A DNA stretch of 64,000 nt. It comes from Patescibacteria group bacterium (GTDB lineage Bacteria > Patescibacteriota > Gracilibacteria > Peribacterales > Peribacteraceae). The notes below the pieces were generated by a model, which ran no database searches, was not told where the DNA came from, and saw nothing but the letters and a program-made list of their open reading frames with translations. Positions 2,388-52,003 of the stretch are shown one piece after another. How positions within the stretch are numbered: position 1 is the stretch's first letter; each line of letters opens with the position of its first letter. The DNA lies in the NCBI GenBank assembly GCA_023263945.1, contig JALQTW010000001.1:117741-181740 (forward strand), in the 5' to 3' direction. The translations under genes and the position numbers were made by a program.

Positions 2388-2498
2388 AAGGACCAATAAA
2401 AAAGAAGCCAAGAACCAAACAATACAAAAAAGAAAAATTCAAAATAAATTTTTTGTGTTTTCACTTACTTGGCTCTTGGTTCTTTTGTATTTTTTCTT

Positions 2499-3893
2499 TT
2501 AATCTGCCCCATCACCCTTCAGCACAACAAAAATCGTCCTCCACAGAATCCATACATCAAGAAGCAAGGACCATTCTTCAATATATTGAAGATCAAGGCG
2601 TACCTCGTCATCGAATTTTAAGTTCGATCGTCCTGAAATCTGTGCAAGTCCTGTCATTCCGGGTTTCACCGTGAAGACACGCCGTGCGTAATCGTTGTAA
2701 TTATCCACTTCATCGGGCAGATGTGGCCTGGGCCCAACAAGGGACATCTGCCCCAGGAGCACATTGAAGAGCTGCGGCAGTTCATCCAGCGTCCAATGCC
2801 GGAGAAAAGCACCGACCCCCGTCACACGCGGGTCATTCTTCATTTTGAAGAGAGGGCCATCGTTCCTGTGACTCAGTGTTACGAGTTTCTCTTTTCGCGC
2901 GTCGGCATCTTTCACCATTGTGCGGAACTTGATCATAGGAAACTTTGTCCGTGCAAATTGCCCGATACGTTTACTGAAATAGAGGATGGGCCATCCGCTT
3001 GTGAGAAGAACAAGCAAGCCAATGAGAAGGAGAAGAGGGCTCAAGAGGATGATAAACAGGATGCTCATGAGGACATCGAAAAGGCGCTTCCATACACGTC
3101 CCCAACCATCCAGTGGTGTTGGTTCAAATGTCAAAATAGGCATCACACCGAAACGTTCCACACTCAAGAGGTGAGGAACATCCACAAAAACGGGAGGCAG
3201 AAAAGAATAGTGAATGTGGTGACTCCGGCAGTACTCAATAAGGGAAAGTGTATCGTCATTCTTCGGATTTGCATCCGTATGCAGTACCACATCAATCGTT
3301 TTTCGTGATGCAATTTTTCGCATATCGGTGAGATCCATACAATGTCCGCTGTATCTGTATCTACGATCTAAAAGAAGCATCCGTTCAACCGAAGAGGGAA
3401 GTGCTGTGCGGCCGAAGGAACAGACGGTCCGTATTCCAATTCCCCGTTCCAAAAGCTCTCGTTGAATAACAAGCAGTAGCCCCCGAATAGACACAGAAAA
3501 CACGACAGAAAGAAATGTTGCCTGTAACAAAAGAATCCGAGAAAAGAAAAGCTGTTTTTGAACAAGGAAGTACCACGCGATGATGATGGCAAGCCACAGA
3601 CACGCAACAATGATGATCTTCTGTATTTCTTTCCAAAACCCCAACGTGAATTTGATGGCATACAATCGGATAATGGCACTCAGTGCGATGAAGAGCGCTA
3701 CGGAGGCAAGAGCGAAATCTTGTATATAAAGAGGAAAGGGCGGCAGGGTTGTTGGTGGCGTGAGGAGCTGTATCCATGGGAGTAAGTCGATATTCATCTC
3801 ACGGAGTCTGTACGCAACAATGAGCGCCAAAAAAACTGCTGCTGCATCCAGAGGGACTTTCAGGACCCCGAAGAGGACTTCGATGCGCTTCAT
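2499..3893 (-). CDS. polyprenyl-phosphate sugar phosphotransferase (bacterial sugar transferase, WbaP/EpsL-like)
   Basis: 464 aa with N-terminal TM helices. C-terminal block [20 protein letters not shown] ... KFRTM ... [38 protein letters not shown] is typical of the family. Confidence 0.8.
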
Positions 3894-3951: not shown

Positions 3952-3957
3952 GATGAT

Positions 3958-4372
3958 CTGCTCTTTGGATGATCGCGCTACCTTTAAAAGGTAACGAGGA
4001 ACGTCCGGACACCGATGGAACGCCATATGGGTAACACCCATCCATGCACGCTGAATTCATAATCGTGCATGAGGACCAGTGCCACAGAGACGAACCCGTA
4101 CCGGAGCGCAAGCGACTGGTACTGGGTATGTGAAACGCCTCCGGCTTGAACGGAGGTCTGAGCATCATGTGGATCTTTGATCCGCCAACAATGTTCACGA
4201 CGGTAAACTCATGGTGGTGCAAGGAGGATTTGGGTAGAAGGAGAAAGCGAATGGTTCCGTTCGCCCTTCACCCCTCCGCTTGATCCGTCCAGTAATGGAT
4301 TGGACAGAGAGATGATCATCACCCCGCAAGGGGATACAGAATCCGGCGTACAGAAGGGCAGGATAAAGAGCA
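3958..4372 (+). ncRNA. rnpB: RNase P RNA, bacterial type A
   Basis: Conserved blocks are present: GAGGAACGTCCGGAC (P4 5' strand), GCCACAGAGACGAA, GGTAAACTC, ACAGAATCCGGCGTA (P4 3' strand). Terminal TGCTCTTT/AAAGAGCA pairing forms P1. All ORFs in 3799-4422 are short and mutually overlapping. End coordinates are accurate to about 10 nt. Confidence 0.85.
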
Positions 4373-4390
4373 TCGAAAGGTGCTTTTTTT
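4369..4390 (+). terminator. intrinsic terminator after rnpB
   Basis: AGCATC-GAAA-GGTGCT hairpin followed by a T7 run (4384-4390). Confidence 0.5.
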
Positions 4391-4400
4391 GAAACATCCA

Positions 4401-4472
4401 ATACAAAAGAGCCAAGAACCAAACTGGGTATATTCGATAACTAGTAAACTAATCAACCAATCAACCAAGAAC
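4401..4472. repeat. single-armed word array: ATACAAAAGAGCCAAGAACCAAAC (4401-4424) plus AACTAATCAACCAATCAACCAAGAAC (4447-4472)
   Basis: A 14-mer GCCAAGAACCAAAC also occurs at 2407-2420. A 19-mer AACTAATCAACCAATCAAC also occurs at 20684-20702. No complementary arm is nearby. Confidence 0.6.
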
Positions 4473-4535
4473 GATTCTTCTTGTATCCCTTCATCCCAAT
4501 GGTAGAGTATGTCCTAAGCTCCCCCTCGCCCCCCC

Positions 4536-51294: not shown

Positions 51295-51340
51295 GAGGGT
51301 AGGGTAGCGGGAGGAGGCAATGGAGGGTAGAGGGATCTCT

Positions 51341-51417
51341 GAAGAAGGCAGAAGACAGAAGGCAGAAATTAGATAACTTAAAACTCTGCCTTCTGATTTC
51401 TGGTTTCTGACTTCTTT
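51341..51417. repeat. CAGAAG-word hairpin between the lipoprotein gene and pheT
   Basis: GAAGAAGGCAGAAGACAGAAGGCAGAAAT ... CTGCCTTCTGATTTCTGGTTTCTGACTTCTTT. CAGAAGGCAG (51356-51365) pairs perfectly with CTGCCTTCTG (51386-51395). Confidence 0.7.
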
Positions 51418-51842
51418 TACTCCTTTATCTCAAACTGCAATGCACGTGCATCCCCATTCGTTTCGTCACCCACTTTCACCACCATCATGTACTGGCCTAC
51501 CGGCCAGTCAGACTCTTTATTTAGCTCAAACTTTGCGAGATCTAAATTGGGACTTGCCGTCACGGAATACGATGTGAAGTAATTTTTATCGTCTCCAAAT
51601 TTCCAGAAAGCAACAACGGGCACTTCCCCTTTTACATTCTCGATCTGTGCATTGAAGACGATGTGCCTATCGGAAGGCTTAAAGACCAACGCGGAGTTTT
51701 TAATCTGATCATGTTCATCGCGCTCAAGACCTGCGCTCAGTGTTCCTACCGTTGTCTCCGGCGCATCCTTCACCTGCCCAGAAACAGATGCCTGACAGGC
51801 GGTGAGGAAGAGGAGAGTCGATGCAAGAATGAGTTTCTTCAT
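51417..51842 (-). CDS. hypothetical lipoprotein
   Basis: 141 aa. MKKLILASTLLFLTAC has a lipobox (LTAC). No family recognised. Confidence 0.65.
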   Translation of the reverse strand: MKKLILASTLLFLTACQASVSGQVKDAPETTVGTLSAGLERDEHDQIKNSALVFKPSDRHIVFNAQIENVKGEVPVVAFWKFGDDKNYFTSYSVTASPNLDLAKFELNKESDWPVGQYMMVVKVGDETNGDARALQFEIKE

Positions 51843-51870
51843 GCAATAAGGATATAACAGGTGATTGATG

Positions 51871-51899
51871 AAAAGAAGACAGAAATCAGAAGGCAGAAG
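51871..51899. repeat. CAGAAG-word arm upstream of the lipoprotein gene
   Basis: AAAAGAAGACAGAAATCAGAAGGCAGAAG. The 17-mer at 51880-51896 is the exact reverse complement of 51386-51402. Confidence 0.8.
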
Positions 51900-52003
51900 C
51901 CAGTGTGGCGGAGAGGCCGGCTCCGCTCCGCTTCGCCGAGCCTGATTCCTTTAAATGTGACAAGCCATCTCGGCGTAGTCCCGCGTAGCGGGACGAAGTC
52001 GGA

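What the first reader, a model, noticed from the sequence alone, without database searches (positions are those of the whole stretch)
2397..2499. Word family A (CCAAGAACCAAA / ATACAAAAGA): an exact 22-mer is shared by loci 37 kb apart
ATACAAAAGAACCAAGAGCCAA occurs at 39628-39649 (+) and as a perfect reverse complement at 2470-2491. GCCAAGAACCAAAC occurs at 2407-2420 and 4411-4424. The 4401-4424 copy, ATACAAAAGAGCCAAGAACCAAAC, is the same element with the GAACC and GAGCC words swapped. The three loci have different contexts: a convergent gene pair, the region downstream of rnpB, and the region upstream of ftsX. A 22-nt identity inside AT-rich non-coding DNA is very unlikely by chance in 64 kb.
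Basis: seen in the sequence. Interest (0 to 1): 0.6.

Follow-up and report, generated by a model that had tools for sequence, protein, structure and literature searches.

The report
Heptad-armed palindromic repeat between genes
The shared 22-letter word is real: it is the arm of a roughly 110-base hairpin-forming repeat, present about 13 times in this small uncultured bacterium, and it belongs to the widespread but still unexplained seven-base-repeat hairpins found between bacterial genes.

Summary
The words are the arms of a 90-130 bp imperfect palindrome, "family A". Each arm is four phased heptads (CCAATAC|AAAAGAA|CCAAGAA|CCAAACA) around a variable AT-rich middle.

- **Copies:** about 13 full copies in this 1.46 Mb genome and about 14 loci in the sister species. 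The 12-mer is essentially absent (at most one copy) from 29 other relatives.
- **Position:** copies start 0-11 nt after stop codons and can fill a whole spacer.
- **Wider class:** family A is one of at least 10 word families of period-7/8 intergenic hairpins in this genome (235 period-7 arrays in spacers, against 6 in shuffles).
- **Turnover:** at half of the orthologous junctions the sister species carries a hairpin of a different family.
- **Conservation:** arms are conserved in sequence, with no compensatory changes and no bias towards the sense strand. This looks like a copy-propagated repeat, not an RNA shaped in place.
- **Gene link:** sister families enclose PF05635 four-helix-bundle genes (7 of 9 here, 12 of 14 in relatives). 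Family A has no such gene-bearing copy.
- **Function:** a role as terminator or processing hairpin is plausible but untested.

It is a new member of the known, unexplained heptamer-repeat class.

The parts
2388..2498 (.). Family A copy 1: a complete palindromic element that fills the whole 111-nt spacer between two convergent stop codons
   Evidence: nhmmer E 1e-23. Gene ends are at 2387 and 2499. RNA fold is -25.7 kcal/mol (+) and -29.1 kcal/mol (-), z -3.9 and -3.6.
2388..2422 (+). Copy 1 left arm, AAGGACCAATAAAAAAGAAGCCAAGAACCAAACAA; holds GCCAAGAACCAAAC at 2407-2420
2467..2498 (+). Copy 1 right arm, ACTTGGCTCTTGGTTCTTTTGTATTTTTTCTT; holds the reverse complement of the 22-mer at 2469-2490
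4398..4486 (.). Family A copy 2, composite or degenerate. Left arm CCAATACAAAAGAGCCAAGAACCAAAC at 4398-4424, an octad array of another word family (AACYAATC) at 4439-4471, and an outer right-arm remnant GATTCTTCTTGTAT at 4472-4485. It lies 32 nt after rnpB.
   Evidence: nhmmer half-length hit, E 1.5e-4. Array listed. Only the minus strand folds (z -3.2, against -0.3 for plus). rnpB is at 3957-4366.
39620..39735 (+). Family A copy 3: a complete element starting 1 nt after the TGA of the TPR gene and ending 45 nt before the FtsX-like gene
   Evidence: nhmmer E 1.5e-26. Fold is -24.5 kcal/mol, z -2.4 on the sense strand and z -1.3 on the antisense strand. Gene context.
39625..39652 (+). Copy 3 left arm, CCCATACAAAAGAACCAAGAGCCAAAAA; holds the 22-mer at 39628-39649
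39697..39725 (+). Copy 3 right arm, TTGTTTGGTTCTTCGGTTCTTTTCTATTG, followed by a T run to 39732

Best explanation
Family A is a genus-specific, gene-less family of heptad-armed palindromic intergenic repeats. Each copy has two inverted arms of about 35 nt. Each arm is four phased 7-nt units (CCAATAC, AAAAGAA, CCAAGAA, CCAAACA), often reaching out to the stop codon itself (TGA-AAGGACCAATAC...). The arms flank a free-evolving AT-rich middle of 20-60 nt.

Shown:
- It is a dispersed repeat, with about 13 copies here and about 14 loci in the sister species.
- It sits flush against gene ends.
- Its arms are kept in sequence while the middle drifts.
- It is one of at least 10 word families of period-7/8 hairpins that occupy about 30% of the 60-400 nt spacers.
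- Whole spacers are exchanged between families at orthologous junctions.
- Sister families are the arms of cassettes that carry a PF05635 four-helix-bundle gene.

Inferred:
- Copies spread or are homogenised by a copying process that acts on the arms (MITE- or REPIN-like, or conversion). They did not arise in place.
- Family A is a gene-less relative of the PF05635 cassettes.
- Once transcribed in a 3' UTR, the long imperfect hairpin acts as a stop, processing or stabilising structure in a genome where no Rho domain was found. That role would be a by-product of the repeat, not the reason for its sequence.
For: Repeat family: the 22-mer and related words far exceed chance. nhmmer finds 13 full-length copies that are alike through arm and middle.

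Heptad phasing and stop-codon abutment are visible in 24 aligned copies.

Position: element starts lie -5 to +11 nt from the adjacent gene end in most copies.

Class: period-7 arrays in spacers number 235 against 6.4 in shuffles, and period-8 arrays 49 against 0.4. Periods 6, 9 and 10 are not enriched. There are many word families.

Genus limit: CCAAGAACCAAA occurs 12 times in G000 and 4 times in G001, and at most once in 29 other relatives. The full element matches only G001.

Turnover: 7 of 14 G001 loci share a junction with a G000 copy. At the others G000 holds a hairpin of a different family, and the difference runs from stop codon to stop codon.

Copy-type conservation: orthologous copies are no closer to each other than to paralogues. 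Arms are 70% identical and middles 41%. There are 0 compensatory pairs.

PF05635 link for the class: 7 of 9 such genes here and 12 of 14 in relatives sit between matched inverted heptad arms. About 5 of 1300 other genes do. Array density tracks PF05635 count across 13 genomes (rho 0.80, p 0.0009). Related proteins keep the same arm word across genera.

Function hint: no Rho RNA-binding domain was found. RNase III is present. Heptad arrays and canonical terminators tend to exclude each other at 3' ends (odds ratio 0.44, p 0.026). Other genera have GC-rich hairpins at the same junction.
Against: No autonomous or gene-bearing family A copy was found in G000 or G001, or next to the same word in 30 loci of other phyla. 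No target-site duplication could be defined. No presence/absence polymorphism with an empty site was seen, only replacement. Movement is therefore inferred and was not observed.

Arm conservation could equally reflect selection for a bound sequence.

The terminator role is weak. Simple scans flag no terminator in the elements. Loops are far longer than in canonical terminators. Two of 13 copies, and 24% of divergent spacers, hold such hairpins. Stems show no sense-strand preference for G.U over A.C (27 against 22).
Confidence: 0.6

Rival explanations
1. Family A copies are dedicated bidirectional, factor-independent terminators or 3'-end stabilisers. Selection maintains them in place at each junction, and their similarity reflects a shared requirement of this organism's RNA polymerase or RNases. 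They are not copied from one another.
For: Eleven of 13 copies abut at least one gene 3' end, within 0-11 nt of the stop. The A-rich arm comes first and the T-rich arm second on both strands, as in bidirectional terminators. No Rho domain was found. Heptad arrays and canonical terminators tend to exclude each other. The same junction holds other hairpins in other genera. Folds beat shuffles (z -2.4 to -3.9).
Against: There are no compensatory changes. Variation gives G.U or A.C, never a restored pair. There is no sense-strand G.U bias. The elements are alike through non-pairing parts and have distinct left and right arm variants. Copies also lie in divergent spacers. The terminator scan does not flag them. 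Whole-spacer swaps between unrelated word families are not expected from evolution in place.
Confidence: 0.15
2. Family A is an array of binding sites for a nucleic-acid-binding protein that reads 7-nt registers. Candidates are a cold-shock-domain protein, S1, or a PF05635 protein acting in trans. The element would regulate or organise neighbouring genes or the chromosome.
For: The arms are conserved in sequence, not just in pairing. The phasing is strictly 7 nt. PF05635 proteins and arm words co-vary across genera. Csp and S1 were proposed for TAACTGA heptamer repeats (PMC4679880).
Against: At least 10 unrelated word families coexist, so one reader protein cannot explain them all. Family A has no cognate PF05635 gene. 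The flanking genes share no functional theme. No binding data exist.
Confidence: 0.12
3. Family A is a REP/REPIN family mobilised by one of the genome's RAYT-like Y1 transposases.
For: The genome has five roughly 147-aa Y1_Tnp genes with HUH-type and Y motifs. A REPIN is likewise two inverted repeats forming a hairpin of about 100 nt in an intergenic spacer.
Against: Every Y1 gene examined is flanked by GC-rich palindromes (AGAGCGG...CCGCGG type), and none by heptad or family A arms. Family A arms are 35 nt, AT-rich and heptad-phased, unlike REPs.
Confidence: 0.06
4. The shared words are chance or low-complexity coincidences in AT-rich spacers.
For: The arms are A/T-rich and built from short repeated words.
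Against: There were 0 matches in 100 shuffles. Thirteen copies have full-length nhmmer E-values down to 5e-32. The element is at the orthologous junction in the sister species.
Confidence: 0.01

Closest known systems
Intergenic heptanucleotide repeats: STRR of heterocystous cyanobacteria (Calothrix/Nostoc), and the over-representation of 7-nt units among long simple-sequence repeats (Mrazek 2007, as summarised in PMC4679880)
   Same: The units are 7 nt and tandemly phased. They are confined to spacers, several word families coexist in one genome, the phylogenetic distribution is patchy, and the function is unknown.
   Different: Family A has only four imperfect units per arm, always as an inverted pair around an AT-rich middle. 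Its outer units are fixed and differ from each other, so it behaves as a defined 110-bp element and not as an expandable array.
Convergent pairs of GGGAATC heptamer repeats in Xanthomonas (PMC4692102)
   Same: Two heptamer arrays lie on opposite strands close together and can form stem-loops. There are 70-75 such pairs per genome. Most are intergenic and are depleted between divergent genes. The repeat type is usually preserved between species.
   Different: The Xanthomonas repeats are G-rich, quadruplex-forming, a single word family, and perfect repeats of variable copy number. Here the arms are A/T-rich, there are many word families, and no G4 potential.
TAACTGA direct repeats of Beggiatoaceae, Cyanobacteria and Bacteroidetes (PMC4679880)
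   Same: An abundant intergenic heptamer word with a patchy cross-phylum distribution. Csp, S1 and CsrA were proposed as readers.
   Different: Those are direct repeats just upstream of start codons, and only one of 170 sets is inverted. Family A is an inverted pair just downstream of stop codons.
ORF-bearing intervening sequences of 23S rRNA (PF05635 / 23S_rRNA_IVP; Leptospira and Coxiella type; own knowledge plus the family name)
   Same: Sister word families in this genome have the same build: long inverted arms forming a stem around a roughly 120-aa PF05635 gene. Such a stem is the kind of substrate RNase III excises from rRNA.
   Different: Family A has no ORF in its middle. It lies in mRNA spacers, not in rRNA. 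Excision was not tested.
MITEs such as Neisseria Correia elements, and REP/REPIN-RAYT systems
   Same: About 100-150 bp with terminal inverted repeats, dispersed in spacers near gene ends. Correia elements can supply terminators or RNase III sites.
   Different: No target-site duplication, no parent IS with the same ends, and no RAYT flanked by family A arms. The arms are heptad-phased.
Bidirectional intrinsic terminators
   Same: A-rich tract, stem, then T-rich tract, read the same way on both strands, at convergent gene ends.
   Different: The stem is AU-rich, 20-25 pairs long with mismatches, and the loop is 20-60 nt. The consensus terminator scan does not detect it.

Membership tests
Heptamer-repeat (STRR-like) intergenic hairpins | Arms built of tandem, phased 7-nt units | tested here: met
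   The arm reads CCAATAC|AAAAGAA|CCAAGAA|CCAAACA in 24 aligned copies. Genome-wide period-7 enrichment is 235 against 6.4 in shuffles.
Heptamer-repeat (STRR-like) intergenic hairpins | Confined to non-coding spacers, dispersed, with several word families per genome | tested here: met
   All 13 copies are intergenic. At least 10 word families are present.
Heptamer-repeat (STRR-like) intergenic hairpins | Inverted pairing of two arrays of the same word | tested here: met
   Folds. There are 75 clear inverted array pairs genome-wide.
PF05635 (IVS-type) heptad-armed cassette | A PF05635 gene between the inverted arms | tested here: not met
   None of the 9 PF05635 genes in G000 or the 5 in G001 has family A arms. 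There is no PF05635 ORF in 30 distant loci that hold the same 19-mer. Family A is at most a gene-less relative.
PF05635 (IVS-type) heptad-armed cassette | Excision or cleavage of the stem by RNase III | not testable with these tools
   An RNase III gene is present.
REP/REPIN-RAYT | A RAYT (Y1 transposase) gene flanked by the same repeat | tested here: not met
   The Y1_Tnp genes examined are flanked by GC-rich palindromes, not family A arms.
MITE | Terminal inverted repeats | tested here: met
   Arms of about 35 nt.
MITE | Target-site duplication and a parent IS with the same ends | tested here: inconclusive
   The ends merge into stop codons and A/T runs, so no duplication can be defined. No longer element with family A ends was found.
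Canonical intrinsic terminator | G+C-rich stem of 5-14 pairs, loop of 3-8 nt, then a U tract | tested here: not met
   No terminator-like site was found within 2388-2498, 4398-4486 or 39620-39735. Loops are 20-60 nt.
Structured RNA under selection (any Rfam-type family) | Compensatory base-pair changes, or an Rfam match | tested here: not met
   0 of 10 consensus pairs show changes on both sides. There is no Rfam hit at the copies.

The most novel reading that the evidence does not exclude
Heptad-armed hairpins such as family A would be the gene-less, trans-maintained derivatives of an unrecognised selfish cassette. The cassette's only gene would be the PF05635 four-helix-bundle protein, which reads arms phased at 7 nt. 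Cassettes and their empty forms would replace one another at gene junctions, from stop codon to stop codon. In CPR genomes without Rho they would have become the main 3'-end hairpins. This would explain the long-standing puzzle of bacterial heptamer repeats and give the 23S-rRNA IVS protein a function.
Probability: 0.25. Interest if true: 0.8.

Novelty: new member of a known kind. Interest (0 to 1): 0.5.

Why it matters
Heptamer repeats between bacterial genes have been reported since 1990 without an accepted function or origin. This small genome shows the phenomenon in a clean form: about 30% of the 60-400 nt spacers are affected, there are many word families, and replacement is visible between two species of one genus. 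Family A is a tractable member because it has a defined 110-bp unit and about 13 copies, several at orthologous sites. In a lineage where no Rho domain was found, such elements may do much of the 3'-end formation, which bears on operon prediction in CPR genomes. The repeats also break assemblies (two G001 contigs end inside copies) and create false ORF extensions. The link between heptad arms and PF05635 genes, confirmed here in six genomes, gives a concrete protein to test.

Tried and rejected
- **Chance or low complexity:** rejected by shuffles and nhmmer.
- **RAYT-mobilised REP:** the Y1 genes carry their own GC-rich palindromes.
- **Canonical terminator or sigma-70 promoter inside the element:** neither was flagged. 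My hand-read TTGTTT-18-TATTGT is not supported by the scan.
- **RNA structure under selection:** no covariation, no sense-strand G.U excess, no Rfam match.
- **All-frame stop-codon arrays as the reason for period 7:** several words carry stops, but GAACCAA and CAGAAGG do not, so I dropped the idea (inspection).
- **Orientation of family A relative to the upstream gene:** the nhmmer best strand gave 6 of 6, but two are near-ties, and end-type and arm-variant criteria give only 3-4 clear cases. I make no claim on this.
- **A gene-bearing family A copy:** none found in G000, G001 or distant loci.
- **Exclusive 3'-end location of the class:** arrays are only mildly depleted in divergent spacers (2.2 per kb, against 3.1-3.4 per kb). 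These figures rest on my own rough gene calls.

Full report
**Observation**

The 22-mer ATACAAAAGAACCAAGAGCCAA is at 39628-39649 (+). A copy with 2 mismatches is at 4401-4422. None of 100 dinucleotide-preserving shuffles of the window gave a match. GCCAAGAACCAAAC is at 2407 and 4411.

- a convergent pair, exonuclease/DinG-like gene and Bac_transf gene;
- 35 nt after rnpB;
- between a TPR gene and an FtsX-like gene.

The window is C11:117741-181740 of a 1.46 Mb, 47.7% GC assembly. I did not verify the name.

**Anatomy**

The words are the arms of a longer unit. A profile built from six copies finds 13 full-length copies with E-values from 5e-32 to 6e-7, plus a few partial ones. The full copies are at C11:43541, 66720, 120124, 157356, 205805, 258424, 372402, 399136, 480418, 603284 and 681821, and at C22:199355 and 241996.

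Each copy is 90-130 bp:
- An outer arm of about 35 nt that reads as four phased heptads, CCAATAC|AAAAGAA|CCAAGAA|CCAAACA. The outer unit is CCAATA or AAAAAATA.
- An AT-rich middle of 20-60 nt that varies freely.
- The inverted arm, often with one extra base (GGTTCTTCGGTTC).

Because the A-rich arm comes first on both strands, either transcript would read A-rich arm, loop, U-rich arm.

Predicted RNA folds:

| Region | Energy, plus / minus strand (kcal/mol) | z, plus / minus strand |
|---|---|---|
| 2388-2498 | -25.7 / -29.1 | -3.9 / -3.6 |
| 39620-39735 | -24.5 / -21.5 | -2.4 / -1.3 |
| 4395-4486 | -8.1 / -23.2 | -0.3 / -3.2 |

The rnpB-side copy is a composite. It has a family A left arm, an octad array of another word family at 4439-4471, and a short right remnant.

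**Position**

Of the 13 copies, 5 lie between convergent genes, 6 between co-directional genes and 2 between divergent genes. Most begin -5 to +11 nt from the neighbouring gene end. In many copies the stop codon runs straight into the arm (TGA-AAGGACCAATAC). Copy 1 is the entire 111-nt spacer.

**Family A is one case of a genome-wide class**

Gapless inverted-repeat and periodicity scans show that many spacers hold hairpins whose arms are tandem 7- or 8-nt units.

Arrays in spacers of 400 nt or less:

| Period | Real | Dinucleotide shuffles |
|---|---|---|
| 7 | 235 | 6.4 |
| 8 | 49 | 0.4 |
| 6, 9, 10 | not enriched | - |

- 151 of 517 spacers of 60-400 nt hold at least one array.
- The variable unit position is usually mismatched in the stem.
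- Array density is 3.4 per kb in convergent spacers, 3.1 per kb in tandem spacers and 2.2 per kb in divergent spacers. In tandem spacers arrays sit nearer the stop (median 8 nt) than the next start (35 nt). These figures use my own rough gene calls.

**Relatives**

- CCAAGAACCAAA occurs 12 times in G000 and 4 times in the same-genus G001, and at most once in 29 other relatives.
- The full element matches about 14 loci in G001 and none in three other genera.
- The G001 orthologue of the DinG-like gene (74% identity over the C-terminal 395 aa searched) has the element right after its stop, and the contig ends inside it.
- Of the 14 G001 loci, 7 share a junction with a G000 copy.
- At five further junctions where both spacers could be read side by side, G000 has a hairpin of a different word family: ACGAGNN, TAGGTKN, GAATTGA with octads, CAGCWRT, or GGCTAGT. 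The difference runs from one stop codon to the other while the flanks align.
- Orthologous copies are no more alike (57-79%) than paralogues (best 72-81%). Over the seven pairs the outer 40 nt are 70% identical and the middles 41%.
- The wider AACYAAN word is patchy in the family: 58 hits in G000, 20 in G014, 12 in G039, 13 in G009 and 0 in most others.
- Period-7 arrays in general are present in some genera and absent in others.
- The 19-mer AAAGAACCAAGAACCAAAC also occurs in 30 loci of unrelated phyla, mostly Planctomycetota, and in some of them as A-first hairpins after stop codons.

**Tests of function**

No Rho RNA-binding domain was found in a genome scored 100% complete. RNase III is present.

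Among 662 gene 3' ends with at least 30 nt of spacer, 72 have a canonical GC-rich terminator, 154 have heptad arrays, and only 9 have both (odds ratio 0.44, p 0.026). At the DinG junction other genera have GC-rich hairpins or no spacer at all. These points fit a 3'-end role.

Against it:
- The consensus scans flag neither a terminator nor a promoter inside the elements.
- RNAalifold keeps only the 10-pair core. It finds no compensatory change, only G.U (4) or A.C (3) variants.
- Stems in co-directional spacers show no sense-strand preference for G.U over A.C (27 against 22, p 0.57).
- The hairpins also occur in divergent spacers.

The RNA role therefore remains an inference.

**How the copies arise**

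The arms are conserved in sequence. There are distinct left and right arm variants, orthologues carry no extra signal, spacers are exchanged whole, and one copy has a nested insert (C11:66718-66866 carries a CGAAGNN array inside an arm). All of this points to copying or homogenisation, not to evolution in place.

The genome has five RAYT-like Y1 transposase genes, but GC-rich palindromes flank them, not heptad arms. No parent element and no target-site duplication could be defined.

**Link to PF05635**

Earlier notes of this scan claimed that heptad arms enclose PF05635 genes. I tested this.
- G000 has 9-10 such genes. Seven of 9 sit between matched inverted heptad or octad arms, each from a different major word family. 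About 5 of 1300 other genes do.
- In G001, G004, G009, G010 and G014, 12 of 14 such genes are bracketed in the same way. The other two lie at contig ends.
- Across 13 sampled genomes, the 4 with essentially no arrays (0-1.7 per 100 kb) have no PF05635 gene and the 9 with arrays have at least 2 (Fisher p 0.0014; Spearman rho 0.80).
- Mutual-best protein pairs keep the same arm word even across genera: GTAGTGA at 62% identity, GAAGACG at 62%, GAATT at 82%.
- None of these genes has family A arms, so family A is at most a gene-less relative.
- I found no paper in the held library that links PF05635 with heptamer repeats.

**Comparison with the known**

Intergenic heptamer repeats are documented but unexplained:
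- STRR of cyanobacteria, and the general excess of 7-nt units (summarised in PMC4679880);
- TAACTGA direct repeats (PMC4679880);
- 70-75 convergent GGGAATC pairs per Xanthomonas genome (PMC4692102).

Family A shares the period, the spacer location and the inverted pairing. It differs in being a defined, AT-rich 110-bp unit with fixed outer units. It fails the tests for REP/RAYT, for a canonical terminator and for a covarying RNA.

**Verdict**

This is a real, non-random and conserved repeat family. It is a new member of a known but unexplained class. The copy-propagated, gene-less hairpin reading is the best supported (0.6). The terminator or processing role is plausible and untested.

Noticed in passing
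G000:C22:264067-267210 (outside the window): A 1047-aa open frame that looks like leucyl-tRNA synthetase contains an in-frame Y1_Tnp (IS200/RAYT-like) domain (7.6e-20) and three period-7 arrays, with no stop codon.
   Followed up: no
G000:C11:82039-82476, C44:47169-47612, C55:18524-18970 (also C33:3496, C66:19299): Five roughly 147-aa RAYT-like Y1 transposase genes. The three whose flanks were read are flanked by GC-rich REP-like palindromes (AGAGCGG...CCGCGG type). This is a second repeat system, independent of the heptad hairpins.
   Followed up: partly
G000: C11:23903-24325, C11:389073-389531, C11:456425-457009, C11:363093-363648, C66:9604-10075, C22:240901-241400: PF05635 (23S rRNA IVS protein) genes are each enclosed by inverted heptad or octad arms of a different word family. 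Two look broken: one has a TGA inside (C22:240986) and one has a frameshift or TAA (C66:9684-9994).
   Followed up: yes
window 51340-51903: A 141-aa lipoprotein-like gene (51417-51842, minus strand) is bracketed by CAGAARN arrays on both sides. Matched arms can therefore also flank ordinary genes, probably as two neighbouring hairpins.
   Followed up: partly
G000:C11:66718-66866: This family A copy has a GC-rich CGAAGNN heptad mini-hairpin inserted in one arm: a repeat nested within a repeat.
   Followed up: no
L074:690, L077, L087:3288, L088:4598 (Planctomycetota MAGs): The same AAAGAACCAAGAACCAAAC word forms A-first hairpins shortly after stop codons in Planctomycetota loci (clearest in L074, L077 and L088). 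One MAG (TGS_PLA7) has it inside a longer repeat present 5 times on a 7.3 kb contig (L083).
   Followed up: partly
L035 and L048 (G001 contigs C42 and C32): Two contigs of the sister genome end inside family A copies, so the repeat fragments assemblies.
   Followed up: no
G000:C3:382-1002: A second RNase III gene sits on a small contig, in addition to the one at C44:30158-30799. It may be a paralogue or may come from another organism in the bin.
   Followed up: no
window 4367-4390: The short hairpin and T run after rnpB (GCATCGAAAGGTGCTTTTTTT) is missed by the consensus terminator scan, so that scan is conservative for this genome.
   Followed up: no
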